Of a DNA stretch of 64,000 bases, positions 37,681 through 63,732 are shown one piece after another. Made by a program: the position numbers and the translations under genes. The notes below the pieces were generated by a model, which was not told the origin of the DNA, did no database searches, and worked only from the letters and a program-made list of their open reading frames with translations. Where the stretch lies: positions 386,535 through 450,534 of the forward strand of contig JAQWJE010000049.1 in NCBI GenBank assembly GCA_029248525.1, read 5' to 3'. Source of the stretch: Candidatus Binatia bacterium (GTDB lineage: Bacteria; Desulfobacterota; Binatia; UBA12015). Within the stretch, counting starts at the first letter, position 1. Each line of letters begins with the position of its first letter.

Positions 37681-37765
37681 AGCGGATGTTCCTCCATCAC
37701 TGGTATGACGCTTGAGGCGGTGTCGGGTCAAGCGGACGGAAGTGCATGACGGGGCGGCTGATCGC

Positions 37766-48415: not shown

Positions 48416-49689
48416 GAAACAACGAGAAAATCAAACCTTTTTTTCGGGTGGTCCCCCCGGCGGAGGCGCGGGAGGCGATCGGTCGGATCAACTCGCTCGG
48501 TTCCGAGTTTGTTCCGGTAGAATCTGCGAGTGGCCGCGTTCTGGCCGCGGCCCTGCTGGTTCCCGGCGACCTGCCGACATTCGATCGCGCCCATATGGAT
48601 GGTTATGCGGTGCGGGCCCGGGACACTTTTGGTGCGTCGGACTCCCTGCCTGCGTATTTGAAGCTTTCGGGTGTGGTCGAGATGGGTCAGGCACCCAAAG
48701 AACCATTGCCGCGCGGTTGCGCGATGAGGATTGCTACCGGGGGCATGCTCCCGGAAGGCGCCGATTCTGTGGTCATGATCGAGTACACGGAAGAAGTGGC
48801 GGGGGGGCAGGTCGAGGTCAGTCGGAGCGTGTCGCCCTGGGAGCATGTGATCCGTATCGGTGAGGATATCGCAGCCGGCGCAGAGATTTTGCCGGCGGGG
48901 AGGCGTCTTCGCCCCCATGATCTGGGCGCATTGACCGGGGTGGGCATCCTCGAGGTTTCGGTGGTTCGACGCCCCCGATTGGCCTTGATCGGCACTGGCG
49001 ACGAAATCGTGGATCCTCGAACCGAGCCAGCACCGGGCCAGGTCCGGAATATCAATCAGATCTCCCTGCGCGCGATGGCCGAGGCGGCCGGGGCAGAGGT
49101 CCTGGACTTCGGGATCTGCAAGGACGACCCGGAGGCGTTCGCGAGCGTTCTGGCGCGTGCTCTGGCGAGTGCGGATACGGTATTTGTTTCGGGCGGCAGC
49201 TCGGTGGGCGTCAAGGATATGACTCTCGATGTCATTGCCGGAGTCCCGGAGACGGAACTTCTTTTCCATGGTATCTCGGTCGCCCCGGGGAAGCCGACCA
49301 TTCTGGCGATGACCGGAAACGGATCGGAACGAAAGGCGATTGTCGGTTTGCCCGGCCATCCTGTGAGTGCGTTGGTGATTTTTGCCGTCTTCGGAGGCCC
49401 GTTGGTGCGGATCCTCTCGGGCGAGGCGCCCGCGCTCGCCTTTGCGCCGCAGAACCGTACCCGGGCGAAATTGGGGCGGAATATCGATTCGGCACCGGGT
49501 CGCGAAGATTACGTTCGCGTCCGCGTCGTGGAAGGCCCGCAAGGGATGGTGGCCGAGCCATTGCCCGGTAAATCGGCGGCCATTTTTTCTCTGGTATACG
49601 CCGACGGGTACGTTGTCGTGGATCTGCATCGCGAGGGCCTGGAAGCTGGCAGCGAAGTGGATGTGATCCTGTTCGCAGGGGGGATCTGA
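48412..49689 (+). CDS. moeA: Molybdopterin molybdotransferase MoeA
   Basis: MoeA N-domain, MoCF-binding domain with VSGGSSVG motif, C-terminal domain. 425 aa. Stop overlaps next gene start (TGATG). Confidence 0.8.
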   Translation: MRNNEKIKPFFRVVPPAEAREAIGRINSLGSEFVPVESASGRVLAAALLVPGDLPTFDRAHMDGYAVRARDTFGASDSLPAYLKLSGVVEMGQAPKEPLPRGCAMRIATGGMLPEGADSVVMIEYTEEVAGGQVEVSRSVSPWEHVIRIGEDIAAGAEILPAGRRLRPHDLGALTGVGILEVSVVRRPRLALIGTGDEIVDPRTEPAPGQVRNINQISLRAMAEAAGAEVLDFGICKDDPEAFASVLARALASADTVFVSGGSSVGVKDMTLDVIAGVPETELLFHGISVAPGKPTILAMTGNGSERKAIVGLPGHPVSALVIFAVFGGPLVRILSGEAPALAFAPQNRTRAKLGRNIDSAPGREDYVRVRVVEGPQGMVAEPLPGKSAAIFSLVYADGYVVVDLHREGLEAGSEVDVILFAGGI

Positions 49690-51785
49690 TGTCGAGAAAG
49701 CGCTATTTGAACAAAAAGCCACTGCAGGAGGCTCGGGCCGATATGTTGGCCAGCGCGAGCCCTCTATCCACGCACGAGGTGGTTGGGGTCGAGGGGTCTC
49801 TGGGCCGGATAACCGCGGATGCCGTATATGCCGCGCAATCGGTGCCGCATTATCACGGCGCTGCCATGGACGGCATTGCGATTCGCGCGGAAGATAGTTT
49901 CGGCGCAAGCGAAGGGCGAGCGGTTACCTTTGAACGAGGCGACCCGGAATCTGTCGATCATCCTTTCTCGTACGTCGACACGGGCAACGCCCTGCCGACC
50001 TGGGCCAATGCAGTCGTCATGATCGAGAGAGTGTTCTCCGGAGAGGCCCCGGCGGATGGCCGTCCGATGTTGCCAACCACCGAGACCGCCGTGGGCGTCG
50101 ATGATGGTTGTTGCGGGCCCGACGAGGAACCGAACCACCAGCATCCGGAGACCACAGGTTCGGAGCCGGTGAGCGGTACGGATTGGGAACAGATTCATGT
50201 GCGGACGTCGAGCACTCCCTGGCAGCATGTCCGCCTGGTGGGGGAGGATGTGGTGGCGAGCGAACCGCTGCTTCCTCGGGGACATCGAATTCGACCGTTT
50301 GATGTAGCTGCCTTGCTCGCCGCAGGTCGCCAGGAAGTTGCGGTGCGCCCGCGCCCACGCGTTGCGATCTTGCCGACGGGAACCGAGCTGATCCAGCCTG
50401 GCGATAGTCTCGAACCAGGTCGCGTTGTCGAGTTCAATTCCCGGATGATCGCAGCCTTTGTCGATGAATGGGGGGGAGATCCGGTCAGGCTGCCGCCGGT
50501 GGTCGATGATCCGGAAAAATTGCGGCAGCGATTACTTGCAGCCCTCGAAGAAGCCGATGTGGTTTGCGTCATCGCGGGTTCGTCAGCAGGTGAGCACGAT
50601 TTTACGGCGTCCACACTCGCCGGCATGGGCTCTCTGCTGGCACACGGGGTCGATGTGATGCCTGGAAAGCCTGCCATTGTCGCGAGTCTCGATCCGCCGG
50701 CAGGCCGTCCGCAAATGGGGACGCGGATTGCTCTGGGGATGCCTGGCTATCCAGTTTCTTCGGCGATCATTTGTCGAGAGCTGTTGGAGCCCTTGTTGGC
50801 GCATCTCCTCGGCACAGCAATCGCGGATCGGGTGACGCTTGCGGCGATCGCACCTCGTAAATTGCCCTCGCGTCTCGGACAGGAGGAGTTCATTCGAGTG
50901 ACGCTCGGCCGGGTGGGTGGGCGCTTGCTGGTCAGCCCTCTGCCGCGGGGTGCTGGCGCGATTACCACCATGGTCAAGGCGGACGGTTTTTTGCGCGTAT
51001 CCCCTCTGGTCGAGGGGATCAATGCGGGGGAAGAGGTCGAGATCGAATTGTTACGCCCTCGCGCGGAGGTTGAGGGGACCGTTCTGGTCACGGGCAGCCA
51101 TGACCCGATGCTGGGTGTTCTGGAGAATGTCTTCAAAAAGAATTTCCCCGCCGGAAAGTTGGCGACCAGCTCGGTCGGCAGCCTCGCGGGATTGCTCGCT
51201 CTGGGGCGCGGGGAAGCTCATATGGCGGCGACACATCTCCTCGACCCGGAGACCGGAGTTTACAATCTGCCCGATATCGAAAGACTGATTCCCGAGGTGC
51301 CGGTGCGGATCCTTACCCTCGCCGTGCGGGAGCAGGGCTTGCTGGTGCCCAGAGGCAATCCGCGAGAGTTGTCCGGCATTGCGGATCTGGCAACGACGGA
51401 CGTCCGTTTCGTGAATCGCCAGAGGGGTGCTGGTACGCGTGTTCTACTCGATTTTCATTTGGATCGCGCCGGCATCGATCCGGATGAAATCGACGGCTAC
51501 GACCACGAAGTCTTTACGCATACTGCGGCTGCGGTGGCTGTTTCCAGTGGCCTTGTGGATGTCGGATTAGGAGTCCGCTCAGCTGCTGTCGCTTTGGGCC
51601 TGGACTTCATTCCGGTCGACCAGGAGGATTATGATCTGGTCTTGCGAGAGGACTTCGCGGCATCGCCGGTGGGCGAGGCTCTCTGCGAAGTGTTGCGGAG
51701 CGAAGATCTTCGTCGCGAGATCGGCGCGGTACCCGGTTATCAGACCTCCAGTACGGGGACCGAGAAGAAACTGACCGCACTGTAG
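49689..51785 (+). CDS. MoeA-like protein fused to C-terminal periplasmic-binding-like (molybdate-binding, COG1910-like) domain
   Basis: N-terminal ~400 aa MoeA-like (IAGSSAGEHD motif). C-terminal ~250 aa resembles PBP-type molybdate/tungstate-binding domain. 698 aa. Confidence 0.65.
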   Translation: MSRKRYLNKKPLQEARADMLASASPLSTHEVVGVEGSLGRITADAVYAAQSVPHYHGAAMDGIAIRAEDSFGASEGRAVTFERGDPESVDHPFSYVDTGNALPTWANAVVMIERVFSGEAPADGRPMLPTTETAVGVDDGCCGPDEEPNHQHPETTGSEPVSGTDWEQIHVRTSSTPWQHVRLVGEDVVASEPLLPRGHRIRPFDVAALLAAGRQEVAVRPRPRVAILPTGTELIQPGDSLEPGRVVEFNSRMIAAFVDEWGGDPVRLPPVVDDPEKLRQRLLAALEEADVVCVIAGSSAGEHDFTASTLAGMGSLLAHGVDVMPGKPAIVASLDPPAGRPQMGTRIALGMPGYPVSSAIICRELLEPLLAHLLGTAIADRVTLAAIAPRKLPSRLGQEEFIRVTLGRVGGRLLVSPLPRGAGAITTMVKADGFLRVSPLVEGINAGEEVEIELLRPRAEVEGTVLVTGSHDPMLGVLENVFKKNFPAGKLATSSVGSLAGLLALGRGEAHMAATHLLDPETGVYNLPDIERLIPEVPVRILTLAVREQGLLVPRGNPRELSGIADLATTDVRFVNRQRGAGTRVLLDFHLDRAGIDPDEIDGYDHEVFTHTAAAVAVSSGLVDVGLGVRSAAVALGLDFIPVDQEDYDLVLREDFAASPVGEALCEVLRSEDLRREIGAVPGYQTSSTGTEKKLTAL

Positions 51786-51847: not shown

Positions 51848-54841
51848 CTACTTCAGGCACTGCAGCTTGAGACGGTCTCCGTCCCGCTTCTTGGAACCCG
51901 CTACGGAGACTTTGGATGCGATCACCAGTTTTGATCCGCGTGGGACATCCACCAGCATCGCCTTCGTGCAGCTTTCTTCGCTGGTGTTCAGCAGCGTGCC
52001 GTCGTTGAGTCCCTCGAGCAAGCTGGCTCTCGCGGCCAGATCGATCGCCTTTCGGGAACGTGCGGCCGGACGTTTGAGATCGATCTCGCTGACCGCTTGT
52101 GCGGGGCAGCTGATGCGCTCATCGGCACCACCGAAGCAGCCCCAGAGCCGGAACTGGCAACCCGGCGCGGCAAGATCAAAGTCGCAGGTTGCATCGCCCT
52201 GAGCGCAGATAGCGATAGGTCTGGGGAGCCCATTCCGCGCGATGGGGACCCCACCGGGTCCGGTTTCCACGACCCATTCGGCAGCGCAGTCAGTTTTGCT
52301 CGAGCCACCGCCGGGGATTCTCAGGTCGGTGGGTGCGATCTCGCAAGTGAGGTTACAGCGACTGCTCTCGGTGCCGTTCAGGTCGCCGTCATCGCATTGC
52401 TCCCCGCACTCGAGGGTACCGTTGCCGCAAACCTCGACGTTGCAGGTATTGGAACAACCATCGCAGGAGTCGAGATTACCATCATCGCAACGTTCGCCAA
52501 TCTCGAACGCGCCGTTGCCGCATACAGCATCATTTCGCAGACAGGCGAGATTGATCTTGTTGCCGACCACCGAGCGGCCGCCGGCATCCCGGGCACCTAC
52601 ACTCAGCGGTTTGGCCGCCAGGGAGCGACCGCCAACCGGGACTACGAACTCGAACGAATTCGTGCAGAGGCCGTCCTCGGGCAGATTGGGTCCATTCTGC
52701 AAAGTGGTCGTTCCGGATTTCACGGTCCCACCCAGACCGGTGAGTGCTGACGCGACCACAGCGGCATTGCTCAGGTCGACGGGATCCCGGCCGAAGCCGA
52801 CTCGCGGCTTACGCAACTTGGCAAAGACAATGGGCTCTGCGTCGCAGAGCGGTTTCTCGGGATTATTGACACCGAGGCAGGCACTGACCTCCCAGGCACA
52901 GGAATTGTTGATCACGCCATCCTGATCGCAAATGGGATCCCCGTCGGTACACGACTGTTCGTTATCGGGGTTGCCGTTGCGATCCAGTGCCGGGTCCGCT
53001 GTGACGAGGTCCCACTGGACCAGGCAGCCGTTGCGGGCCTTGGTCCCGGGGATGCGAATCCCGTCTACGCCGGTTGGCTGACACGTGTCTTCGCAGCCAT
53101 CATCATTGTCGAGATTCCCATCGTCGCAGGATTCGTTGCATTCAAGAATACCATCGCCGCAGAGATCGTCGATTCGACTACAGTCGGAACTGCAACCGTC
53201 ACAGTTCCGGATGTTGCCATCGTCGCAAACCTCGCCCTCATCGGTCGTGCCGTCGCCACACGCACTCGCGCATTCCGGGAGCACGACCGGCGGCTGCGCC
53301 CCATCGAGAGAGGGGTCGGAGACGGGTGTAATTATCGGATCCGAGCCGTTGTCGGCGCTGATATTGCCGGTGATGGTCGGTTCCACGGTGTCGTAGATCA
53401 AAACATTTGCATACGAGGCCAGCATGGTGCCGGCAATCGTGATGGCTCCCCGGGCCCGGATCTCGTTGACGCCAAGTCCTTGGTAGACAAAGCCGGCCCG
53501 GGTATCGATCTCGGCGCCTGCCGCCACATTGACGGAACAGCCGGAGAGAAGGACCATACCGCCGAGGCCATCGCGCCCAGTGCCTTCGGCATCGAGCTCT
53601 CCAAGGATCTCTGTGCCTCCACCCGAGAAAATTTCCACAAATCCGCCACCTCCCGGGGAGGTCAGATCGGCATCCCGGATGATGCTGTTTCCGGTCGCTG
53701 CGATGGAGATGCCACCGCCACTTCCGTAGCTGCCGCCAGCGCGCAGGGAGAGTGAACTGCCGGGATGCATGGTGACACTGCCGCTGGTAGTGATATCGAC
53801 TTCACCGCCAAAGCACTGGGTGCCGCCCTGGAATCGTAGCTCGGAGCGTAGATCGATATCTCCGCCCGATTCAATCGTGAGTGGTGAGCCGTCCCCGCAA
53901 TTTTCGTCGGCACCAGCCCCGCCCTTGCCGTTCATGATCCCGGAAATATCGACAAAGCCTGCGGGAGCGGAAAAGTCGATGGAACCGGCTTCGCCGTCAG
54001 GACCGCCGCCGGAGGCCTCGATCTCTCCGTTGAAAATGATGTTCCCGCCCGTGCTGCTGAAGAAGATCGGTCCGCCGCCGTATGCGCCGCCTTGTGTGGT
54101 GATCTCGCTACTCACAACGAGGTCGCCGCCCGCATATGCGGAGAAGTCTCCGCCTGCGGAGTCCGCGCCAGAGGCATTGAGAATCATCTCGCCGGATAGT
54201 GTGATCGGCCCGGAGGCATCGATTGAAATCACCCCTCCCTGCGCATCGGCGCCGGTGGCGGAGGAGCGCAGCTCGCCGGCTGCGGTCACGGCGCTGCCGG
54301 GAGTTTCCAGAGCCTTGATGTAGATCGAGCCCGCGTAATTGTCACGGACGTCAATGATACTCCCGACCTCAAGGGAGATGTCTCCCGCGAGGGCCTCCAG
54401 GTCGACACGAGATTGCGCCCCATTGCCGTCAATTTCAGCACCGCTGCGCATCGTAATCGTTCCGGCTTTGAAGGTGATGCGCCGGAGGACCGGATCAGGC
54501 AGAGACTCGATCGTGACTTTGGCCGAAGCCGCGAAGACCAGGTCGGTCTCTGCGCCAAATTCCAGAACGGAGCCGGCATCGATGGTGACGGCGCTGCTGA
54601 TTGTACAGGGGTTCCCCGTGCACAGTTCGCTGGCTTCCGTGGCCAAGCCGGTTCGTGGCAGCAGGACAAATAGAGAAAGAAGGCAAATTTGAGCAAATGA
54701 TTTCAAGGGAACCCCTCCCAGGGATAAATTTTGGGGATTTTGTGTGCGATCCAACCGGATCTGGTTTGCCTGATTCAAGTTTCTGTCCGGGGCCACAAGC
54801 CAAGCCAACCCTGAAATTATCATGGGTTCCAAAAAAAGCAC
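51848..54841 (-). CDS. Large secreted protein: glycine-rich beta-helix-like N-terminal region plus Myxococcus-type cysteine-rich repeats
   Basis: 997 aa. N-terminal half is G/S/D-rich with periodic repeats (beta-helix-like). C-terminal half carries repeated CDDGN...CDGCS...C modules matching Myxococcus cysteine-rich repeat. N-terminal start and signal peptide position uncertain. Confidence 0.6.
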   Translation of the reverse strand: MLFLEPMIISGLAWLVAPDRNLNQANQIRLDRTQNPQNLSLGGVPLKSFAQICLLSLFVLLPRTGLATEASELCTGNPCTISSAVTIDAGSVLEFGAETDLVFAASAKVTIESLPDPVLRRITFKAGTITMRSGAEIDGNGAQSRVDLEALAGDISLEVGSIIDVRDNYAGSIYIKALETPGSAVTAAGELRSSATGADAQGGVISIDASGPITLSGEMILNASGADSAGGDFSAYAGGDLVVSSEITTQGGAYGGGPIFFSSTGGNIIFNGEIEASGGGPDGEAGSIDFSAPAGFVDISGIMNGKGGAGADENCGDGSPLTIESGGDIDLRSELRFQGGTQCFGGEVDITTSGSVTMHPGSSLSLRAGGSYGSGGGISIAATGNSIIRDADLTSPGGGGFVEIFSGGGTEILGELDAEGTGRDGLGGMVLLSGCSVNVAAGAEIDTRAGFVYQGLGVNEIRARGAITIAGTMLASYANVLIYDTVEPTITGNISADNGSDPIITPVSDPSLDGAQPPVVLPECASACGDGTTDEGEVCDDGNIRNCDGCSSDCSRIDDLCGDGILECNESCDDGNLDNDDGCEDTCQPTGVDGIRIPGTKARNGCLVQWDLVTADPALDRNGNPDNEQSCTDGDPICDQDGVINNSCAWEVSACLGVNNPEKPLCDAEPIVFAKLRKPRVGFGRDPVDLSNAAVVASALTGLGGTVKSGTTTLQNGPNLPEDGLCTNSFEFVVPVGGRSLAAKPLSVGARDAGGRSVVGNKINLACLRNDAVCGNGAFEIGERCDDGNLDSCDGCSNTCNVEVCGNGTLECGEQCDDGDLNGTESSRCNLTCEIAPTDLRIPGGGSSKTDCAAEWVVETGPGGVPIARNGLPRPIAICAQGDATCDFDLAAPGCQFRLWGCFGGADERISCPAQAVSEIDLKRPAARSRKAIDLAARASLLEGLNDGTLLNTSEESCTKAMLVDVPRGSKLVIASKVSVAGSKKRDGDRLKLQCLK

Positions 54842-54880
54842 AAGGCTTTAATTCGCAGCCCTGTAGAGGGTGCTATGTGC

Positions 54881-56481: not shown

Positions 56482-57579
56482 CTAGCGATCGAAAAGTTCG
56501 GACCAGCGATGCAGTCTCTGGAAGGTTTCCAGAAAATATTCACGGTACATCGGCGGGCAGAGAAGATCATCAGCCACCTTGGTGAAATTGTTCACCAGGA
56601 AGCCGAATACGTCCTGATACATGGCCGCATAGGTTCCGGGCTGCGCCGCGTCCACTCCCGCATCGATCATGCCGTAGAAGTAGGGTGACATCAGGTGACC
56701 GTAATGCTCGCCGTGAACTTCCTTGAGAAGATCGCCTTCTTTGAGGTGAGTACCGACGGGCTCGCCAACTGCAATCAGGTCCTGGCCGCCGCGCTTATGC
56801 ACCAGCGCTTCGATCACATAACCGGCCCAGATATCGTCAAATCTCCAGATCGGATAGCCCTTGGCAATCTCTCGATCCATGGGCATCTGGTAGGCTGCCG
56901 GCAACATGTCGCGATGGAAAGCGAAGTTCATTGCACAGAAAGAGAACTTGGTGGGAACCTTTGGCGTTCCGACTGTGAGGAGCGGCTCGACAAGCTTCAC
57001 ATCGTTTCGCAGCGAGCGATAATCCTCGAACAGATATTTATCCAGTCCGTCATAGTCGAGAACGTTTTTCCAAAGCCCCATGATGCAGGTCATGCGTCCG
57101 GAGACTTCAGTGAATTTCTCTTCGAGGGGATGACGGAGCCAATATGGGAAGCCGCGCGGATAGATGGTGCGCCCATCGTCGCCGAACTCATTGAGGAAGG
57201 AGATGGTGTTGTACCAGCCATCGACCTCCACGTTGGGCCAGGTGCCTTCTGTGCCGACACAGGAGTACGCGTCCATAAAATTGGGTGGGCAAAACACATC
57301 ATCGTCGAGAGTAATCACGACGTCATGGTCGGTGTGTTTGTAGACGTAATAGAACGCGAAGTTGCGGCACGCCGCAGTCTTGTGGGGGATTAGATCATAA
57401 TCCTTACCCATGACTTCCCGCTGGTCGTCGTAGGTGAAGACCGTCATTTTGTCGCGAGATTTCTTGATATTGCCGTCCGAGTCATCGACGACAAAAATAT
57501 CGACATCCTCGGGAATCGCGGCGATGCGGTCGGCCTCGATCGTGCGGATCGAGGGAATAATGACGACGGGTTTTTTCAT
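56482..57579 (-). CDS. GT75-like / reversibly-glycosylated-polypeptide (UDP-arabinopyranose mutase)-like protein
   Basis: VVIIPSIRT, ITLDDDVFCPP (DxD) and YPRGFPYWLR align with RGP/GT75 signature regions (IVIPTIR, TIDDDCF, RGYPFSLR). Start at ATG 57579 with GGAGG RBS 8 nt upstream. Confidence 0.5.
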   Translation of the reverse strand: MKKPVVIIPSIRTIEADRIAAIPEDVDIFVVDDSDGNIKKSRDKMTVFTYDDQREVMGKDYDLIPHKTAACRNFAFYYVYKHTDHDVVITLDDDVFCPPNFMDAYSCVGTEGTWPNVEVDGWYNTISFLNEFGDDGRTIYPRGFPYWLRHPLEEKFTEVSGRMTCIMGLWKNVLDYDGLDKYLFEDYRSLRNDVKLVEPLLTVGTPKVPTKFSFCAMNFAFHRDMLPAAYQMPMDREIAKGYPIWRFDDIWAGYVIEALVHKRGGQDLIAVGEPVGTHLKEGDLLKEVHGEHYGHLMSPYFYGMIDAGVDAAQPGTYAAMYQDVFGFLVNNFTKVADDLLCPPMYREYFLETFQRLHRWSELFDR

Positions 57580-57615
57580 TTTACGGAACCTCCGGGGAAC
57601 ATACTTGAACAGTGA

Positions 57616-57634
57616 TACCTGCGACGCAGGTTTA
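57616..57634 (-). promoter_or_regulatory. Perfect palindrome upstream of GT75-like gene
   Basis: ACCTGCGaCGCAGGT located ~40 nt upstream of ATG 57579 in a 276-nt intergenic gap. Confidence 0.25.
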
Positions 57635-57855
57635 AGAGCCCACAAGATTCCCTATCGGCAGGGCTGCGGGAAAGTCTATTTTTTCTATTGCCGACGATCT
57701 GGGCAAAATTCTCTCGAATTTGGCCGGTTTTTCGTCGGGGCTATCCTTCAAGCAATTGTTTTCACAACGGTTTTGCAATCGCTGTCGCAAACAAAGATCG
57801 AGCGGCCGCAAGCAGATTTTTTTTTCACAGCTGTCTCCATAAGCTGAAATTTTCT

Positions 57856-59442
57856 CTAATCGGCTCGTCCCGTCCTCCCTTGCTCGATGGGGGGCGAGCG
57901 CAAATTCCGGATAATCTCCTCGATCTCCGCTCCGGAGAGTCCGGCCGCAGATGGCTGGTCGAGAATTGATAATCTTGGTTCGCGCCAGGTCTCGGCGCGC
58001 TCAATTTGCGCAAAGATTCTTCCAAAAGCTTCCGGAAGAATCGCCTCTCCGCCGAGGACGGCGACCGTCCAGTCGTCAGATGTTGCCGCAGCGAAGCCGA
58101 AATGGCTGCTGGGTTTTTGCGCGGTTCGTGCGGGAAGCTCCGCGGCGCTGGTCCCCTTTTTCCGGAAGGTTTCGGTGAATTTCTGCACTTTCGTTCGTGG
58201 CATCAGGAAGTCGGCAAGAAGGTGAAATGGCGTCGGGCGCCCGGCGGCGCGCAGACTCGCACCGGTTTTCGGGTTCCGCCAAAACGCGCGCAAGGAAGCG
58301 AGGGTCACGCTCTGTGGCTGTTTACTGGCAATGGCGATCCATCGCGAGGCTGGCTGGCCGGCCCAGATCGTCACGTCGAGGAACTCCGTTGTCAGCTCCG
58401 ACATAACCAGAGCCAATTCCTCGACGGGTAGGGTCCCCGGATCAATTTTCACGGCGTAGAGCCCGTCGGGAGCCAGAGCTTCAGCGATCGAGTCGAGAAA
58501 CGATTGCGAGAGACACGCGGCAAAGGCTTGCGAGGTGACCATCGGCGGTTGGAGGAGAATGACGTCGAAAGGGCCTCCCGAGACGGGAGAGCATGCCGCT
58601 GCGGTCTCTGTCCGGGGCGTGATTGGCGCCGCCGACTTGTCGGTAAACCAACTCGTCAAATGGGCGGGTTCGCCGAGTCGGTCGCGAACGAAGATTTCGA
58701 GATCCGAATGCGTGCCCGCGGCGGCGATTGGTTGGCCGCTGCCTCGGCCGAGAAAGAGCATTCGCTTTGGCTGGCCTTGGAGGATCAATGGCAGATGGGC
58801 CAAAAATCGATCCTCTTGCGCCAGAGCTTCCGCGTATATCGCGCGGCCGTCGGGTCCGCGCAGGAGCCGTCCCCGATTGGCATCATCGGTGACCATCGCT
58901 ATCCCGGGCGCCTCGTCCGCGAGCGCGAGAAGCGTACCGAATCGATCTTGCAGGCTCCCGCTGAGCAGCGAGCGGGGCCATAAGGCGCTGAGCCCGACGC
59001 AAAGCAGGAGGAAAATCAGCGTGCGCTTGCGTGGGGGAAGGGTTGTCTCGATGGCCAACGCAATGGCGGCTGTCGCCGGAAAGATTTGGAGAGTCCCAAA
59101 TTGCCAGGCAAAGGCTGCTTGCAGCCAAGGCATCGCGGCCAGAGCGCCGACAAGAAAACCTGCGAAAACGGGCCCGCTGGATTCGGCCTCTCGTCTGGTC
59201 CGGGAAAGGGTCGCCCCCAGAAGGGGCGCCACCGGCAGCAGGAGGAGGGTATGAACGCCGAAGATCCAGAGCAGGGTGCTGGGCCAGCTATCGAGTTTCG
59301 GGAGATAGGGCGCGGCTCGGGGGAGCACCCATCCAAGAAAGAGCCAGAGGAGAGGCAGGCTGAGAGTTGCTGCGATCGCGCCGAATAGCAGTCGTTTGGA
59401 TGAGCCCGTCAGGCGCCGCCAGTCAAGCAGGGATCCGATCAC
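57856..59442 (-). CDS. Membrane protein with spermidine-synthase-like (aminopropyltransferase/PABS-fold) C-terminal domain
   Basis: N-terminal ~200 aa with multiple TM helices. Later LFLGRGSG and FDVILLQPP resemble SpeE GGGDG and DVIIVD motifs. 528 aa. Confidence 0.4.
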   Translation of the reverse strand: MIGSLLDWRRLTGSSKRLLFGAIAATLSLPLLWLFLGWVLPRAAPYLPKLDSWPSTLLWIFGVHTLLLLPVAPLLGATLSRTRREAESSGPVFAGFLVGALAAMPWLQAAFAWQFGTLQIFPATAAIALAIETTLPPRKRTLIFLLLCVGLSALWPRSLLSGSLQDRFGTLLALADEAPGIAMVTDDANRGRLLRGPDGRAIYAEALAQEDRFLAHLPLILQGQPKRMLFLGRGSGQPIAAAGTHSDLEIFVRDRLGEPAHLTSWFTDKSAAPITPRTETAAACSPVSGGPFDVILLQPPMVTSQAFAACLSQSFLDSIAEALAPDGLYAVKIDPGTLPVEELALVMSELTTEFLDVTIWAGQPASRWIAIASKQPQSVTLASLRAFWRNPKTGASLRAAGRPTPFHLLADFLMPRTKVQKFTETFRKKGTSAAELPARTAQKPSSHFGFAAATSDDWTVAVLGGEAILPEAFGRIFAQIERAETWREPRLSILDQPSAAGLSGAEIEEIIRNLRSPPIEQGRTGRAD

Positions 59443-59628: not shown

Positions 59629-60753
59629 TCAGGCTCCGGTGCCGGCAGCAAAGAGATTTTCTCGCTTTCGCTGAGCGGTCAGTGGCTGTCCGAGATTTTT
59701 CTCCAGTCGGGCGGCTGCAGCAGGTGCCTGGCGACGCATTTTTCCGAAAACTTCCGCGGGAATCGCCACAGCAACGCACGGCATATCGGCAATGACGGTT
59801 TCCGAATGGCGGTACTTTTCAAACGATCCATTCTGTCCAAAATGATCGCCGGGCTGAACGGGAAATTTTCGGTCCCCCTGGATCGATGTTGCCTCACCTG
59901 CGACGAGGAGGAACGTTGATTTGGCGGGCTCTCCGCGTCTGGCGACCCGGTCGCCGGTGCAGATCCGAAAGATTGTGGACTGGTCGAGAATCTGGTCTAT
60001 CTCGCGATCTCCCATGCCACGAAAAATAGCGCAACTGTTCGCGACCCCGGAGCCCAGCCGCTGTTCCACCCGAGGTCTCATGCCGCCGGGTCCGAGCTCT
60101 GTCCCGGTTAGCGCCGGTCCCGCTCCCGGGTACATTTCGTGGAACCACGCGATGACCTCATTGTCGTCGAGGTAGTTTGCAGCAGCTCGAGCGAGCGGCG
60201 TCCGACGCCGCAAAAGTTCCTGTCGATCGCCGAGCAGCATGAGGAGTGGCAACTTGTAACCGTAAGCCGGATCATCAAACCCTCTCTCGTAATTGCGGAA
60301 GCCCAAATGCTGATAAAAGGGGAGCTGGTGAGGGCTGCAGTCCCCGAAATTCAGCCGGATTTCGCGTTGGCGCATATAGTCGTACACGACCTTCATCAAA
60401 GGATAGATCAATCGTCCATTGCGATTCCGGGGATCGAGCATGAATCGGCTCGTCGTGCAGAGGGCGTCCATGCCGAAGCCGGCCAGAGCCGGGTGCATAT
60501 GGAGGCGCGATAGAATCTTCTGCGGTTCCGGAAGGTCGGCAAGGCAGGTCACCCGCAGAGAGCCGATCGCTTCCCCATTTTTCCAGGCACCGAAGGAGAG
60601 GCTGTTCTCCTCGATCACATCCCGGATAGATCGGGACTCGTGATCGGCCTCGGGGGTCGGGATTTGCAACTCCTCGACGTAGACGCGGTAGCGGAGTTCG
60701 CAGATTTCCGAAATCTCTCGGGGCGTCTTCGCTGGACCTATGACCACGCCCAT
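59629..60753 (-). CDS. FeeM-like N-acyl amino acid synthase (GNAT fold) fused to cyclic-nucleotide-binding domain
   Basis: N-terminal ~230 aa resembles FeeM/autoinducer-synthase-like N-acyltransferases (LRYRVYVEEL...). C-terminal ~120 aa has cNMP-binding beta-roll signature (FLLVAGEA...GDHFG...A). Confidence 0.5.
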   Translation of the reverse strand: MGVVIGPAKTPREISEICELRYRVYVEELQIPTPEADHESRSIRDVIEENSLSFGAWKNGEAIGSLRVTCLADLPEPQKILSRLHMHPALAGFGMDALCTTSRFMLDPRNRNGRLIYPLMKVVYDYMRQREIRLNFGDCSPHQLPFYQHLGFRNYERGFDDPAYGYKLPLLMLLGDRQELLRRRTPLARAAANYLDDNEVIAWFHEMYPGAGPALTGTELGPGGMRPRVEQRLGSGVANSCAIFRGMGDREIDQILDQSTIFRICTGDRVARRGEPAKSTFLLVAGEATSIQGDRKFPVQPGDHFGQNGSFEKYRHSETVIADMPCVAVAIPAEVFGKMRRQAPAAAARLEKNLGQPLTAQRKRENLFAAGTGA

Positions 60754-61520
60754 CCGGCCTGCTCGTTTCCCACTTGTCGGAACATTGTCGTGTACAGATA
60801 CGAGACTACGCGAGCCGCTTCGCAGACGTCTCTCCGATCTTCAGGAGTCTGGATATGACCCTCGATGGCTCGGCTTATATCCTCGAAATGGCTCGCATCA
60901 GCCGCTCCATGCCCCGCTACAAATTGTACGGGAGCCGATACGCCCCCTCGGTTTTCGCTCAGCTTCGCGCCCACCTCGGAGCCGATATCCGCCCCGACAG
61001 CCTCGAGGATATACATCCAACCCATGATAGCGGCGGGGTTTCCGGACGTCGCCAAATCGTGGACGTAGCCAACCAGTGCCGCACAGGCGAGGGTGGGGCG
61101 CGCCCGGACGACGGTTTCCCCGGAGACGCCGAGTTTCTCGAGGTCTGCGAGAGCCCATTTTTCATGCCCCTGCTCTTCAAGGGAATGCCGCAGCAAATAC
61201 GTTGCAAGGCCTTCGTTCTCCGTACAGCAGCGGGCTGCCGCAGCCGCCATGATAACGGGGCTGAAACGGGCATAATGGTATACGTTGGTCAGGTAGTTGG
61301 CGTAGTCCTCATTGCTCAGGCTGCCGGCCAAAGCCTCGGAAACGATCCGACATCCCTTGAGGTTTGCCATGGTCGACAGGCGTATTTCGCCGAGCGCCTC
61401 CATCGGCTTTTGCTCATCTTTGCTCTGCTGGTCAGCTTGCTTGACGCGAGCAATTCCCAAACCACCCATCATCCACCCCACATACGCCCGACCCACATCG
61501 TTCGGCGCGTTCTTCGTCAT
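60738..61520 (-). CDS. Iron-containing redox enzyme family protein (heme-oxygenase-like fold, PqqC/CADD/TenA-like)
   Basis: 260 aa helical protein with EEQGHE and HGAADASHFED carboxylate/His motifs like HO-like diiron enzymes. Overlaps downstream gene start by 16 nt. Confidence 0.45.
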   Translation of the reverse strand: MTKNAPNDVGRAYVGWMMGGLGIARVKQADQQSKDEQKPMEALGEIRLSTMANLKGCRIVSEALAGSLSNEDYANYLTNVYHYARFSPVIMAAAAARCCTENEGLATYLLRHSLEEQGHEKWALADLEKLGVSGETVVRARPTLACAALVGYVHDLATSGNPAAIMGWMYILEAVGADIGSEVGAKLSENRGGVSAPVQFVAGHGAADASHFEDISRAIEGHIQTPEDRRDVCEAARVVSYLYTTMFRQVGNEQAGWAWS

Positions 61521-61647
61521 GATCACCCTGATTCTCAGGGTGTGCAAGACAACATCTTACCGTGTTGATCATAGCAAATGCAGCATGACGAGTAAATTTG
61601 TCGAGATATATGACAATCGGGAGGCTGGTTGGTGGTGCGAAAACGGT

Positions 61648-63732
61648 TCAGGAGGTCCAGCTGGCCTCGAAACCCGCATACCAGTTCAGGCGCGCGGCCG
61701 GTTCATAGAAGCGTCCTCCGCGGGCGTTGATCCGCAGGGTTCCATCATAGGTTGCACCATTGAGATTCCGGACGCCTGCGAACGGCTGGACTTGCCAATG
61801 TTTGCCGATCATCCCTGTCCAGGCCATGCGGAGGCCGAGCGTGACGTATGCCGGGCTTTTGGCCAGATTTGCGTCATCCACGGGGATGGCTCCCACCCCC
61901 TGGACCTCGGCGGCCAGATACAAGCCGGAATCGCCGCGCCAGGAAAGTTCCCCGAACGCCTGCCAGGGCGGGATTCCGGGCTCGGCGTTCCCGTCGAATT
62001 GTCCATTATCCGTCGTATACGAGATATATTTTGCATCGAGGGCGGCGGCGGCCAGAGTCCATCCAAAGCCCATCGGCAGCTTGCCGCTTCCTTCGAGTTC
62101 GACTCCCCGGCGTTGCGATCGACCGGCATTTCGAAACGCCACTCTTCCCGACAGGGTTTCATAGGGAATCAGTTCGTCCTGCAGGTCGATCAGGAAAAAA
62201 GCGAGACCCAGAGTCAGGGATTCGTGTTCATATCGGGAGCCTACCTCCCAGCTTTGGGCGGTTTGGGGTTTGATTTCGTCGTTGAAGCCCGGCCTATTGG
62301 GGTTCACCAATTCTGTCGTGGTTGGGACCTGAAAAGCGGTGCTGAACGAGGCGAAGACGGAGAGATCGCTGTCCGGCGTCCAGAGGATTCCGGCCGAGGG
62401 GCTCCAACGGTCCATGGTTCGATTGCCCGAGTCTCCGCTGTCGGCAGGGAAGCGGACGTCGACCGCATAGAAAAAGGCGTCGTAGCGAATGCCGCCTGTG
62501 AGCTCGACCTCGGGAAGAATTTCAAAGTCCTCTCGAAGGAAAACGCCGATGCCGGTAACCTCCTCGACTTGATGGAGTCCGAGCGCACCCTGATTCCCCT
62601 CCTCGTTGGCCCAGCGCCGGCGATCGTCGTTCTGGTGTTGCACCTCGAGACCGGTGGTGATGCGTTGTGTCCACCCCCATAGCGGACCGTTCCATTGGTA
62701 CTGGAGCCCACCGGACGGGGAGATGCGATCGAATCCGACGACCCCGTCACCGAATTGGGGAAGGATGGGCAGGCGAGCAAAAAAGCTGCGGTAGAGCAGG
62801 CTGATATTGCCATCGACGCTATGTGGGCCGTCCTGATACGAACCGACCAGACCCAGCCGGACTTGCTGGACCTCTTCGCCTGCCCGCAACAGAACATTTC
62901 GCTCTCGAGCGCTGCGCCGATCCTCCTCGACCTCCTCGATCGTCAATCCACCGGGGTCCTGCGCCTGCGGCGCATCCACCGCCTGAAGGAGCAACGTCAG
63001 ATCAATCGTGTCGGATAAATCCCATTTCGCCTTGCCGCTCAGGTTGGCACTTCTGGTCCGCGCATGATCGCGATAGCCGTCCTGCTGCATCCAGGTCGCC
63101 CCGAGATAACCGCCGCCGGACTCCCAACGAGTATCAGCCTGAGCAGATGCTCGCAGCAGCCCGAAGGATCCGCCGAGAACCCGGGCCGTGACCCCGGGAT
63201 TTTCCGGAGGTTCGCGCGTGAAAATTTGTACGACCCCTCCTGCCGCATTCCCGTAAAGGGAAGCGGATGCGCCGCGCAGGACTTCGACCCGGTCGGTCAT
63301 CGCGAGATCGAGGTCGTCGATCTGGGTTTGGCCGTCGGCGAGAGTAGCGGGCAGTCCGTCAACAAGAACTTTGATCTCTCGAATTCCGAATGCCGCTCGC
63401 GTTCCAAAGCCACGAATCTGGATTCGTGCATCCTGCGCAAAGTTTCCGCTTTCCTGCACGAGAAGGCCGGGCACGCGGGCCAGGGATTCCCCGAGGGAGA
63501 CGCCCGGGCGAGCCAGAGTCAGTGCGTCGGGCCCGACGATACTGATACTCGCGGCGTTCTTCTGGAGTGGCCGCGGTGATCGAGTGCCCGTCACGACCAA
63601 GGATTCAATGGAGGCCGGAGGGGTCTCGCCGGTGCTTGTTGGCGCTTCCTCTTGGGCAACAGTTGCCGCATATGCCATGCTCGGGCCTGCAAGTAAAAAC
63701 AGAATTCCCGTAAGCCATCGTTGCCAGTTCAT
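61648..63732 (-). CDS. TonB-dependent receptor
   Basis: Signal peptide MNWQRWLTGILFLLAGPSMAYA. Plug motif (ESLVVTGTRSPRPLQ), 22-strand barrel-like repeats. 694 aa. Confidence 0.75.
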   Translation of the reverse strand: MNWQRWLTGILFLLAGPSMAYAATVAQEEAPTSTGETPPASIESLVVTGTRSPRPLQKNAASISIVGPDALTLARPGVSLGESLARVPGLLVQESGNFAQDARIQIRGFGTRAAFGIREIKVLVDGLPATLADGQTQIDDLDLAMTDRVEVLRGASASLYGNAAGGVVQIFTREPPENPGVTARVLGGSFGLLRASAQADTRWESGGGYLGATWMQQDGYRDHARTRSANLSGKAKWDLSDTIDLTLLLQAVDAPQAQDPGGLTIEEVEEDRRSARERNVLLRAGEEVQQVRLGLVGSYQDGPHSVDGNISLLYRSFFARLPILPQFGDGVVGFDRISPSGGLQYQWNGPLWGWTQRITTGLEVQHQNDDRRRWANEEGNQGALGLHQVEEVTGIGVFLREDFEILPEVELTGGIRYDAFFYAVDVRFPADSGDSGNRTMDRWSPSAGILWTPDSDLSVFASFSTAFQVPTTTELVNPNRPGFNDEIKPQTAQSWEVGSRYEHESLTLGLAFFLIDLQDELIPYETLSGRVAFRNAGRSQRRGVELEGSGKLPMGFGWTLAAAALDAKYISYTTDNGQFDGNAEPGIPPWQAFGELSWRGDSGLYLAAEVQGVGAIPVDDANLAKSPAYVTLGLRMAWTGMIGKHWQVQPFAGVRNLNGATYDGTLRINARGGRFYEPAARLNWYAGFEASWTS

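What the first reader, a model, noticed from the sequence alone, without database searches (positions are those of the whole stretch)
59629..60753. N-acyl amino acid synthase-like GNAT domain fused to a cyclic-nucleotide-binding domain
The N-terminal ~230 aa look like a FeeM/AHL-synthase-like acyltransferase. The C-terminal ~120 aa look like a CAP-family cNMP-binding beta-roll. I do not recognise this pairing. It would put lipid-signal synthesis under direct allosteric control by cAMP or cGMP.
Basis: inference. Interest (0 to 1): 0.65.

Follow-up and report, generated by a model that had tools for sequence, protein, structure and literature searches.

The report
Sensor-fused lipid acyltransferase with diiron-oxidase partner
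The gene really does fuse a FeeM-type N-acyl amino acid synthase domain to a cyclic-nucleotide-binding-fold sensor domain and belongs to a widespread unstudied family, but this copy has lost the two residues that normally hold cAMP or cGMP, and it is always paired with a diiron oxidase gene.

Summary
ORF 59629-60753 (-) encodes 374 aa. FeeM (PF21926, aa 17-168) and cNMP_binding (PF00027, aa 264-341) both score above Pfam's gathering cut-offs. A confident AlphaFold model (pLDDT 90, pTM 0.87) matches FeeM and LuxI-type synthases in its N-terminal part and CNB domains in its C-terminal part.

The fusion is not an artefact. It occurs in relatives from 128 GTDB species genomes across many phyla. 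No paper on it was found.

The cAMP/cGMP interpretation is only partly supported. Most relatives keep the canonical FGE...R[ST]A phosphate-binding cassette.

There is a new finding. In 39 of 39 loci of its subfamily, the gene is abutted or overlapped upstream by a heme-oxygenase-like diiron oxidase (HDO) gene with all six metal ligands intact. More distant relatives are instead fused or adjacent to SAM methyltransferases or B12 radical-SAM enzymes. Seven loci carry MMPL lipid exporters directly downstream.

My best reading is a sensor-gated, probably acyl-carrier-protein-dependent synthase of an oxidatively tailored lipo-amino acid. In this clade the effector is probably not a cyclic nucleotide. 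It is a new variant of a known kind, following the Rv0998 cAMP-GNAT logic.

The parts
59629..60753 (-). Whole ORF, 374 aa: FeeM-like GNAT, helical linker and CNB-fold domain.
   Evidence: ORF list. Pfam hits above gathering cut-offs. AF2 pLDDT 90.1, pTM 0.87.
60229..60753 (-). N-terminal FeeM/LuxI-clan GNAT acyltransferase domain (aa 1-175). Family-invariant residues include R21, Y22, Y25, E28, D45, R67, S102-R103-F104, R111, N135, G137-D138-C139, Y147, G151, R153. The acyl-CoA P-loop is degenerate (R111-N-G-R-L-I instead of RxxGxG/A).
   Evidence: Pfam FeeM, 48 bits. Foldseek matches to 2g0b, 3p2h, 5w8*, 1ro5. Invariant columns. GNAT motif alignment. P-loop loss as a mark of carrier-protein-dependent GNATs (PMC11685415).
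60019..60228 (-). Helical linker (aa 176-245) joining the two domains. Conserved D176, P186, L187, R189, D197, W203, F204, Y208. The profile aligns from about position 198 with the C-linker plus CNBD of SthK.
   Evidence: Alignment A1. pLDDT 89-97 across this stretch. SthK alignment, profile 198-356 to chain 273-432.
59686..60018 (-). C-terminal CNB-fold domain (aa 246-356): beta-roll plus alphaB and alphaC helices.
   Evidence: Pfam cNMP_binding, 37.6 bits. PDB profile hits to PKG, PKA, CRP and SthK. Foldseek.
59788..59850 (-). Non-canonical phosphate-binding cassette (aa 302-322), G-D-H304-F-G-Q307-N-G-S-F-E-K-Y-R-H316-S-E318-T-V-I-A. The canonical Glu is Gln and the canonical Arg is His. 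H304 and E318 are clade-specific invariants.
   Evidence: Family alignment. Pairwise alignments to PKG CNB domains. hmmalign of all loci and proteins.
59632..59685 (-). C-terminal tail (aa 357-374), poorly conserved and of low model confidence.
   Evidence: pLDDT below 50 for aa 359-374. Variable in alignment A1.
60738..61547 (-). Partner gene: heme-oxygenase-like diiron oxidase/oxygenase (HDO; Pfam Haem_oxygenas_2). Putative metal ligands E125, H128, E182, H213, D217 and H220 are invariant (numbering of the 269-aa ORF). The true start is probably internal, between 61403 and 61481.
   Evidence: Pfam 62.9 bits against cut-off 28.9. Alignment A2. PDB profile search: 3DDE E 3.7e-31, MboA 4.5e-8, CADD 6.7e-4. 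Present directly upstream in 39 of 39 subfamily-1 loci.
60738..60753 (-). 16-nt overlap between the end of the HDO gene (TAG at 60738-60740) and the ATG of the FeeM-CNB gene (60751-60753). This implies co-transcription and probably translational coupling.
   Evidence: Sequence read. The same 16-nt overlap occurs in L001, and overlaps of 4-10 nt occur in L003, L006, L008, L089 and L091.
61648..63732 (-). TonB-dependent receptor upstream on the same strand. The neighbourhood is conserved only in the Binatia clade (L001, L002, L009, L010).
   Evidence: Pfam Plug plus TonB_dep_Rec_b-barrel. Below every NCBIfam equivalog cut-off. Synteny.
57856..59442 (-). 528-aa hydrophobic protein downstream on the same strand, with no Pfam family. 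Conserved as a neighbour only in the Binatia clade. More distant loci carry an MMPL exporter at this position instead.
   Evidence: No Pfam hit. Equivalent 566-aa gene in L001 and L002. MMPL or MMPL-LolA_like downstream in 7 of 39 loci.

Best explanation
The ORF encodes a two-domain enzyme. The N-terminal domain is a GNAT-fold acyltransferase of the FeeM/LuxI/OlsB clan. It most likely takes a fatty acyl group from an acyl carrier protein and puts it on the amine of an amino acid or amino-acid-like acceptor, making an N-acyl amino acid type lipid.

A rigid helical linker joins it to a C-terminal CNB-fold sensor domain. That domain most likely gates the acyltransferase allosterically, in the way the CNB domain of Rv0998/MSMEG_5458 relieves autoinhibition of its GNAT domain.

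The gene is co-transcribed with, and overlaps, an upstream HDO gene. The HDO most likely oxidises either the acceptor or the N-acylated product. The pair would therefore form a minimal two-gene cassette for a tailored lipo-amino acid, which is exported in some relatives by MMPL transporters.

In most family members the sensor has a canonical cAMP/cGMP pocket. In the window's Binatia clade the phosphate-binding Arg and ribose-binding Glu are replaced by a conserved His and Gln, with clade-specific His304 and Glu318 alongside. Here the effector is probably not cAMP or cGMP but an unidentified ligand.

Shown: the domain identities, the fusion, the altered pocket residues and the gene linkage. Inferred: the acyl donor, the acceptor, the product, the direction of regulation and the ligand.
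For: Domains and fold.

Family-wide conservation of the full-length architecture.

Degenerate acyl-CoA P-loop, as in carrier-protein-dependent FeeM: and PMC11685415.

Pocket substitutions Q307 and H316 are fixed in 13 clade members, while 135 other members are canonical E/R. Within the clade the cassette segment is better conserved (69% identity) than the CNB domain as a whole (59%). Between clades the CNB has diverged far more (29% identity) than the catalytic domain (50%). This argues for a retuned sensor rather than a decaying one.

HDO linkage: the HDO gene lies directly upstream in 39 of 39 subfamily-1 loci. This includes 3 of 3 loci reached from the HDO side. The six diiron ligands are invariant.

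A small-molecule or lipid role is supported by repeated fusion or adjacency to other tailoring enzymes. SAM methyltransferase is fused in 6 loci and directly downstream in 3. B12 radical-SAM is directly downstream in 6 loci and fused in P0079. MMPL or MMPL-LolA_like exporters lie directly downstream in 7 loci.

The nearest characterised HDO, MboA, oxidises the side chain of an amide-linked C-terminal residue (PMC13185094).

Precedent for a CNB-gated GNAT: PMC8556138. Precedent for CNB pockets retuned by loss of the Arg: PMC10959531.
Against: No biochemical data exist for any member.

Similarity to FeeM is at profile and fold level only. A phmmer search of the N-domain against PDB sequences finds no FeeM or LuxI chain. 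The acceptor and donor are therefore unknown.

I could not inspect the model coordinates, so the inter-domain interface and pocket geometry are untested.

Glu to Gln alone is compatible with cAMP binding (Epac has Gln there; from my own knowledge). A protonated His316 with the neighbouring Arg315 might still bind a phosphate weakly.

HDO linkage shows co-function but not reaction order.

Histidine-kinase adjacency in distant relatives (13 of 50 loci) is only modestly above what chance might give and was not tested statistically.
Confidence: 0.55

Rival explanations
1. First reader's reading, taken literally for this protein: cAMP or cGMP binds the C-terminal domain and switches N-acyl amino acid synthesis on or off.
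For: The CNB fold is intact and confident. Gly306, the beta-roll and the C-helix are conserved. Most relatives have a canonical pocket. Gln at the Glu position is tolerated in Epac (own knowledge). Arg315 sits next to His316 in the window protein.
Against: The Arg that neutralises the cyclic phosphate is His316. The flanking Arg315 is not conserved within the clade (Thr or His in several members). Glu318 adds a negative charge within the cassette. Loss of this Arg abolishes cAMP response in trypanosomatid PKA, and restoring it restores cyclic-nucleotide response (PMC10959531).
Confidence: 0.15
2. The CNB-fold domain of this clade binds no small molecule. It serves as a structural, oligomerisation or partner-docking module, like the CNB-homology domains of KCNH channels. 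It might, for example, hold the HDO or an acyl carrier protein.
For: Both hallmark ligand residues are lost. Foldseek gives about 20% identity matches to EAG1 CNB-homology domains. Several other lineages of the family also have degenerate cassettes. Unfused FeeM-like enzymes still pair with the HDO (L033, L035).
Against: The cassette is the best-conserved part of the domain within the clade, and it carries new invariant polar residues (H304, Q307, H316, E318). That pattern is what a retained binding pocket predicts.
Confidence: 0.15
3. The cassette makes a lipidic hydroxamate or other N-oxygenated amphiphile. The HDO N-oxygenates an amine and the FeeM-like domain acylates it. In Binatia the product is an iron-related compound taken up through the adjacent TonB-dependent receptor.
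For: Characterised HDOs include N-oxygenases such as SznF and RohS (papers listed). A TonB-dependent receptor lies directly upstream on the same strand in the Binatia clade. Hydroxylamine acylation by GNATs is established in siderophore pathways (own knowledge).
Against: The TonB receptor is not conserved outside this clade. The nearest characterised HDO is a desaturase/acetylenase, not an N-oxygenase. No other siderophore genes were seen.
Confidence: 0.1
4. The GNAT domain is a protein lysine acyl/acetyltransferase, like Rv0998, rather than a small-molecule lipid synthase.
For: The only experimentally studied CNB-GNAT fusions are protein acetyltransferases (PMC8556138). The N-domain profile weakly matches acetyl-CoA-dependent GNATs, at E about 1e-5.
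Against: The best Pfam family is FeeM, and the fold is closest to FeeM and LuxI-type synthases. The acetyl-CoA P-loop is degenerate. The domain order is reversed. There is tight linkage to tailoring enzymes and lipid exporters.
Confidence: 0.05

Closest known systems
FeeM and related N-acyl amino acid synthases (Pfam PF21926; PDB 2G0B)
   Same: GNAT fold of the LuxI/FeeM type. The Pfam hit is above the gathering cut-off. The acyl-CoA P-loop is lost, as in carrier-protein-dependent GNATs. Tailoring enzymes lie nearby.
   Different: Known NAS enzymes are stand-alone proteins of about 200 aa. Here a 70-aa helical linker and a CNB-fold domain are appended. Sequence similarity to FeeM itself is detectable only by profile or fold. 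The partner is an HDO, not the Fee-cluster enzymes or the PEP-CTERM/exosortase context (TIGR03694, E 0.11).
Rv0998 (MtPat) / MSMEG_5458 (MsPat), cAMP-regulated GNAT protein acetyltransferases
   Same: A CNB domain and a GNAT domain lie on one polypeptide. In those enzymes ligand binding relieves autoinhibition of the acyltransferase (PMC8556138).
   Different: The domain order is reversed (CNB is N-terminal there). Those are acetyl/acyl-CoA-dependent lysine acetyltransferases with a canonical P-loop and a canonical cAMP pocket. Here the GNAT is FeeM/LuxI-like, and the pocket of this clade lacks the Arg and Glu.
LuxI-type acyl-homoserine lactone synthases (TofI, LasI, BjaI)
   Same: Fold-level similarity (TM 0.62-0.71 normalised to the target). 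The N-terminal R..Y/F..E motif and the S-R-F motif are shared. The profile gives weak hits to TofI and BjaI.
   Different: The window protein has no Autoind_synth Pfam hit. I did not find the conserved SAM-site Trp in the alignment by eye. No LuxR gene is adjacent.
Trypanosomatid PKA regulatory subunit (nucleoside-binding CNB domains)
   Same: The CNB fold is kept, but the phosphate-binding Arg is replaced and an acidic residue is introduced in the cassette, which changes ligand class (PMC10959531).
   Different: The positions and residues substituted differ: there Ala202 to Glu and Arg209 to Thr or Asn; here Glu to Gln, Arg to His and Ala211 to Glu. No ligand is known here.
HDO enzymes: PDB 3DDE (uncharacterised, TENA/THI-4-like), MboA acetylenase, CADD
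   Same: The partner protein has the HDO fold family and all six putative diiron ligands. MboA also acts on an amide-linked amino acid residue.
   Different: Only 3DDE is a close relative (E 3.7e-31), and it has no known function. MboA and CADD are remote (E 4.5e-8 and 6.7e-4). No MboB-like reductase is adjacent.

Membership tests
FeeM / N-acyl amino acid synthase family (PF21926) | Profile match above the curated threshold | tested here: met
   48 bits against gathering 27, aa 17-168 covering profile positions 2-152 of 158. The same domain is precomputed in 28 of 30 homologues.
FeeM / N-acyl amino acid synthase family (PF21926) | GNAT fold of the FeeM/LuxI type | tested here: met
   AF2 pLDDT 90. 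Foldseek matches to 2g0b (TM 0.77 normalised to the target), 3p2h, 5w8*, 1ro5 and 6wns.
FeeM / N-acyl amino acid synthase family (PF21926) | Loss of the acyl-CoA pyrophosphate P-loop (Q/R-x-x-G-x-G/A), as described for carrier-protein-dependent GNATs | tested here: met
   R111-N-G-R-L-I aligns with R-G-A-G-L-G of 3fb3. Criterion taken from PMC11685415.
FeeM / N-acyl amino acid synthase family (PF21926) | Produces an N-acyl amino acid from acyl-ACP and an amino acid | not testable with these tools
   Needs heterologous expression with LC-MS, or an in vitro assay.
Cyclic-nucleotide-binding domain (PF00027) | Profile match above threshold, and the beta-roll plus alphaB/alphaC fold | tested here: met
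   37.6 bits against 27.5. Family profile hits PKG, PKA, CRP and SthK at E 1e-13 to 1e-41. Foldseek.
Cyclic-nucleotide-binding domain (PF00027) | Phosphate-binding cassette with Gly-Glu and Arg-[Ser/Thr]-Ala, contacting the ribose 2'-OH and the cyclic phosphate | tested here: not met
   The window has G306-Q307 and H316-S317-E318. This Q/H state is conserved in 13 clade members, whereas 135 other family members are E/R.
Cyclic-nucleotide-binding domain (PF00027) | Binds cAMP or cGMP | not testable with these tools
   Needs ITC, DSF or a co-crystal. Co-folding with ligands is not available here.
cAMP-regulated GNAT (type III KAT; Rv0998/MSMEG_5458) | N-terminal CNB domain preceding a C-terminal acetyl-CoA-dependent GNAT with a canonical P-loop | tested here: not met
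   The domain order is reversed. The P-loop is degenerate. The GNAT is of the FeeM/LuxI type.
LuxI-type AHL synthase (PF00765) | Autoind_synth profile match | tested here: not met
   No PF00765 hit for the window protein at E up to 1. Only weak profile hits to TofI and BjaI, at E about 1e-3.
OlsB ornithine-lipid N-acyltransferase / PF13444 | Match above curated cut-offs | tested here: not met
   Acetyltransf_5 scores 19.8 bits, below 22.4. NF052554 scores 19 bits against a cut-off of 350.
Pycsar-type defence effector (CNB domain plus effector, next to a pyrimidine cyclase) | Adjacent nucleotide cyclase gene and an effector-model match | tested here: not met
   Only weak CNB-level hits to PycTIR models, at E 2.5e-5 to 4e-4. 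No cyclase appears among the called neighbours in any of the nine encoding-contig look-ups.
Heme-oxygenase-like diiron oxidases (partner gene; PF14518) | Profile match plus the three-His, three-carboxylate metal ligand set | tested here: met
   62.9 bits against 28.9. E125, H128, E182, H213, D217 and H220 are invariant in seven partners at 40-69% identity. Assigning these residues as ligands is by analogy with CADD (own knowledge).

The most novel reading that the evidence does not exclude
FeeM-CNB proteins are a widespread, unrecognised class of second-messenger-gated (or metabolite-gated) synthases of tailored lipo-amino acid signals. Each lineage couples the synthase to one dedicated tailoring enzyme: an HDO, a SAM methyltransferase or a B12 radical-SAM enzyme. 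Often there is also an exporter or a histidine kinase. This would amount to a quorum-sensing-like chemical language outside the LuxI/LuxR paradigm. Within it, the Binatia clade has rebuilt the cyclic-nucleotide pocket (His304, Gln307, His316, Glu318) to sense a different ligand. That ligand could be a nucleoside-like or anionic metabolite, or a metal, which would fit the diiron partner and the neighbouring TonB-dependent receptor.
Probability: 0.2. Interest if true: 0.8.

Novelty: new variant of a known kind. Interest (0 to 1): 0.55.

Why it matters
N-acyl amino acids and their relatives act as bacterial signals, surfactants, membrane lipids and host-receptor ligands. How their synthesis is controlled after translation is essentially unknown.

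A family in which the synthase carries its own ligand sensor would give a direct, testable link between intracellular second messengers (or another metabolite) and lipid-signal output.

The invariant HDO partner defines a compact two-gene biosynthetic cassette. It can be expressed heterologously to find a new product and a new HDO reaction. It may also give the orphan PDB structure 3DDE, its closest solved relative, a functional lead.

The contrast between canonical and retuned pockets within one family is a natural experiment on how CNB domains change ligand specificity.

Cultured carriers of distant members exist: Anaerospora hongkongensis DSM 15969 and Rhodospirillaceae bacterium LM-1.

Tried and rejected
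Structure libraries:
- Model coordinates are not exposed, so pocket geometry and the inter-domain interface were not examined.

Sequence searches that added little:
- Sequence-only PDB searches with the N-domain did not retrieve FeeM. The link to FeeM rests on the Pfam profile and on fold.

Literature:
- Searches for the fusion, or for HDO plus N-acyl chemistry, found nothing relevant.
- The paper on N-acyl alanine methyl esters says nothing about biosynthetic genes.

Readings rejected:
- Defence-system reading: only weak domain-level PADLOC hits and no cyclase neighbour.
- AHL synthase, OlsB and PEP-CTERM-associated NAS memberships: all fail curated thresholds.
- Apparent 'unfused' relatives L036 and L037 turned out to be frameshifted long-read assemblies.

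Weak or unquantified signals:
- The promoter/terminator scan is not above the shuffle expectation. One sigma-70-like site at 61596-61568 (-) upstream of the HDO gene is only a consensus match.
- Many 'conserved neighbour' clusters in the BLAST clustering were antisense shadow ORFs of the two core genes in GC-rich DNA, and I ignored them.
- Enrichment of histidine kinases near distant members was not tested statistically.
Full report
**Observation.** The minus strand carries an ATG-to-stop ORF at exactly 59629-60753, encoding 374 aa. Pfam places FeeM (PF21926) at aa 17-168 (E 1.5e-12, 48 bits, gathering 27). It places cNMP_binding (PF00027) at aa 264-341 (E 2.1e-9, 37.6 bits, gathering 27.5). 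NCBIfam has no model for the protein. It returns only sub-threshold hits to CRP, a CNB-bearing encapsulin, OlsB and the exosortase-associated acyltransferase.

An AlphaFold2 model built on 28 homologues is confident (pLDDT 90.1, pTM 0.87). Only the last 16 residues are disordered. Foldseek against the PDB matches the N-terminal half to the AHL synthases TofI, BjaI, LasI and MesI, and to FeeM itself (2g0b, TM 0.77 normalised to the target). It matches the C-terminal half to the CNB domains of HCN channels, PKA, PKG, GlxR and SthK.

**The fusion is a family, not a one-off.** A word-index search found 30 clusters. Nearly all are about 374 aa with both domains, and all come from metagenomes or MAGs. 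One hit, 100% identical but partial, is labelled Candidatus Binatia bacterium, which identifies the likely source of the window.

A scan of one genome per GTDB species found relatives in 128 genomes. In most of the 80 loci kept, the match covers query residues from about 1 to about 358. The carriers are Binatia, several proteobacterial classes, Acidobacteriota, Planctomycetota, Nitrospirota, Methylomirabilota, Negativicutes, Melioribacteraceae, Gloeobacterales, Rickettsiales and others. They include the isolates Anaerospora hongkongensis DSM 15969 and Rhodospirillaceae bacterium LM-1.

A phmmer search with the N-domain alone against 1.84 billion cluster representatives gave 1425 hits (588 at E 1e-10 or better). 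No paper describing the architecture was found.

**The sensor pocket.** In CNB domains the phosphate-binding cassette reads F-G-E ... R-[ST]-A. The Glu contacts the ribose 2'-OH. The Arg neutralises and hydrogen-bonds the cyclic phosphate (role of the Arg as described in PMC10959531).

The window cassette has the same length and aligns without gaps to PKG cassettes. It reads F305-G306-Q307 ... R315-H316-S317-E318-T319. The Glu is thus Gln and the Arg is His. Arg315, which precedes the His, is not conserved in the clade.

Across about 214 distinct CNB-bearing members, 135 have the canonical E/R pair. The Q/H state occurs in 13 sequences, which are exactly the window's clade. Other lineages show other departures, such as L/R, A/H, A/Q and E/Q.

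Within the window clade the cassette is the best-conserved part of the sensor: 69% mean pairwise identity against 59% for the whole CNB domain. It also carries clade-specific invariant residues H304 and E318. Between this clade and canonical subfamily members, the CNB domain shares only 29% identity against 50% for the catalytic domain.

I read this as a pocket that changed specificity and is now under selection, not one that is decaying. The trypanosomatid PKA regulatory subunit is an experimentally proven precedent. There, replacement of the Arg and introduction of a Glu switch the CNB domain from cAMP to nucleosides (PMC10959531). Glu to Gln alone would be compatible with cAMP binding (Epac; my own knowledge). 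The loss of the Arg is the stronger argument.

**The catalytic domain.** Family-invariant residues are R21, Y22, Y25, E28, D45, R67, S102-R103-F104, R111, N135, G137-D138-C139, Y147, G151 and R153. They fall in the N-terminal motif and the beta4/alpha3 region that FeeM/LuxI-clan enzymes share. The family profile weakly matches TofI and BjaI over this region.

Where acetyl-CoA-dependent GNATs have R-x-x-G-x-G/A, the window has R111-N-G-R-L-I. Loss of this P-loop has been described as characteristic of carrier-protein-dependent GNATs such as FeeM (PMC11685415). I infer an acyl-ACP donor. The acceptor cannot be predicted.

**An obligatory partner gene.** The upstream ORF (60738-61547, -) is a Haem_oxygenas_2 protein (62.9 bits). 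Its stop overlaps the FeeM-CNB start by 16 nt.

Every locus of the window's subfamily has the same gene directly upstream, overlapping or abutting. That covers six distinct metagenomic loci at 33-74% identity and all GTDB loci L009-L038. In total this is 39 of 39 loci.

The putative diiron ligand set (E125, H128, E182, H213, D217, H220) is invariant. The closest solved relative is the uncharacterised structural-genomics entry 3DDE (E 3.7e-31). Next come MboA (4.5e-8) and CADD (6.7e-4). MboA desaturates the side chain of the C-terminal, amide-linked Arg of a tripeptide (PMC13185094). That is chemically analogous to acting on an N-acylated amino acid.

Two loci (L033, L035) pair the HDO with an unfused FeeM-like enzyme. 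The HDO-synthase pairing therefore does not depend on the sensor.

**Other linkages point to a tailored, exported lipid.** In the more distant subfamily (22-29% identity, 50 loci) the HDO is absent. In its place:
- A class-I SAM methyltransferase is fused C-terminally in 6 loci (mostly Rickettsiales MAGs) and lies directly downstream in 3 loci.
- A B12-binding radical-SAM enzyme lies directly downstream in 6 loci (mostly Negativicutes). It is fused in the 948-aa P0079.
- A histidine kinase is adjacent in 13 loci.

In the window's subfamily, 7 of 39 loci have an MMPL transporter directly downstream, three of them fused to a LolA-like domain.

The Binatia clade instead has a 528-aa Pfam-less hydrophobic protein downstream and a TonB-dependent receptor upstream. 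These associations favour a small-molecule lipid product over protein acylation.

**Mechanism proposed.** The proposal has four steps:
1. The FeeM-like domain N-acylates an amino-acid-type acceptor, probably from acyl-ACP.
2. The HDO oxidises the acceptor or the product.
3. The CNB-fold domain gates step 1 allosterically. The only studied CNB-GNAT fusions, Rv0998 and MSMEG_5458, work this way: cAMP binding relieves autoinhibition (PMC8556138).
4. In most of the family the effector is plausibly cAMP or cGMP. In the window's clade it is probably something else.

Steps 1 to 3 are inference from homology, fusion and gene linkage. The pocket change in step 4 is read directly from the sequence, but its consequence is inferred. 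I put 0.55 on this composite.

**Rivals.** Four alternatives remain:
- Literal cAMP/cGMP control of this protein (0.15).
- A ligand-free structural or docking role for the domain (0.15).
- A hydroxamate or iron-related product, suggested by the N-oxygenase precedent among HDOs and the clade-specific TonB receptor (0.10).
- A protein acyltransferase (0.05).

A Pycsar-like defence role is rejected. PADLOC gives only weak domain-level hits, and no cyclase neighbour was seen.

**Comparison with what is known.** It works like Rv0998 in logic, and like FeeM-type NAS enzymes in chemistry. It is a member of neither the type III KAT family (reversed order, no P-loop, different GNAT subtype) nor, by curated thresholds, the LuxI, OlsB or exosortase-NAS families. 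It passes the Pfam FeeM and CNB profile and fold tests, but it fails the defining cNMP-contact residues.

**Verdict.** This is a real, conserved and unstudied architecture, and a new variant of a known kind. Its cAMP/cGMP conclusion is plausible for the family but not for this copy. The more informative discovery is the invariant HDO partner, together with the pattern of alternative tailoring enzymes. Interest 0.55.

Noticed in passing
L053, L076, L077, L081, L084, L085 (e.g. L076:3782-5971); proteins P0094, P0134: Triple fusions of FeeM-like domain, CNB domain and class-I SAM methyltransferase (about 600-730 aa), mostly in Rickettsiales MAGs. In L050, L071 and L087 the methyltransferase is a separate gene directly downstream. 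[quoted passage not shown]
   Followed up: partly
L068:1993-6834 (Anaerospora hongkongensis DSM 15969); also L046, L064, L066, L072, L083; protein P0079: In Negativicutes the order is PAS histidine kinase, FeeM-CNB, then B12-binding radical-SAM enzyme, with a 4-nt overlap. P0079 (948 aa) fuses FeeM-CNB to the B12 radical-SAM enzyme. The CNB cassettes in these lineages are also non-canonical (HFG[AEV]...Q/H).
   Followed up: partly
L011, L012, L019, L021, L024, L037, L091 (e.g. L021:5203-8439): MMPL (RND-type lipid transporter) genes lie directly downstream of FeeM-CNB. Those of L019, L021 and L024 are fused to a C-terminal LolA-like domain (about 1060-1080 aa).
   Followed up: partly
L073:2353-5089 and L088: In L073 (Panacagrimonas MAG) an HDO-like gene, an unfused FeeM-like gene and a FeeM-CNB gene lie in a row. 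In L088 (Planctomycetaceae MAG) there are three FeeM-like paralogues and two HDO-like paralogues within 6 kb.
   Followed up: no
window 57856-59442 (-): A 528-aa hydrophobic protein with no Pfam family, and only faint similarity to fused MFS/spermidine-synthase models. It is conserved downstream of the cassette only in the Binatia clade (566 aa in L001).
   Followed up: no
window 56482-57645 (-): A 387-aa protein matching the Pfam family 'Reversibly glycosylated polypeptide' (RGP, 44.5 bits). It is syntenic in L001.
   Followed up: no
window 61648-63732 (-) and 35224-38082 (-): Two TonB-dependent receptors. The one next to the cassette scores best against PqqU (332 bits), far below that model's cut-off of 1200, so its substrate is unknown.
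   Followed up: no
window 51851-54847 (-): A 999-aa protein whose only Pfam match is DUF4215 (43.8 bits for the whole protein, though no single stretch passes on its own). A 949-aa counterpart is syntenic in L001.
   Followed up: no
window 49572-51782 (+): A MoeA molybdopterin molybdotransferase fused to a C-terminal PBP_like periplasmic-binding-protein-type domain (737 aa).
   Followed up: no
protein P0093 (545 aa): A FeeM-like domain followed by two cNMP_binding stretches. This is a tandem-sensor variant of the family.
   Followed up: no
L090:2201-3829, L001:1-411, L091:1-3624: Acyl-activating (AMP-binding), enoyl-CoA hydratase, SDR and CoA-transferase genes lie near several cassettes. This fits fatty-acyl supply, but enrichment was not tested.
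   Followed up: no
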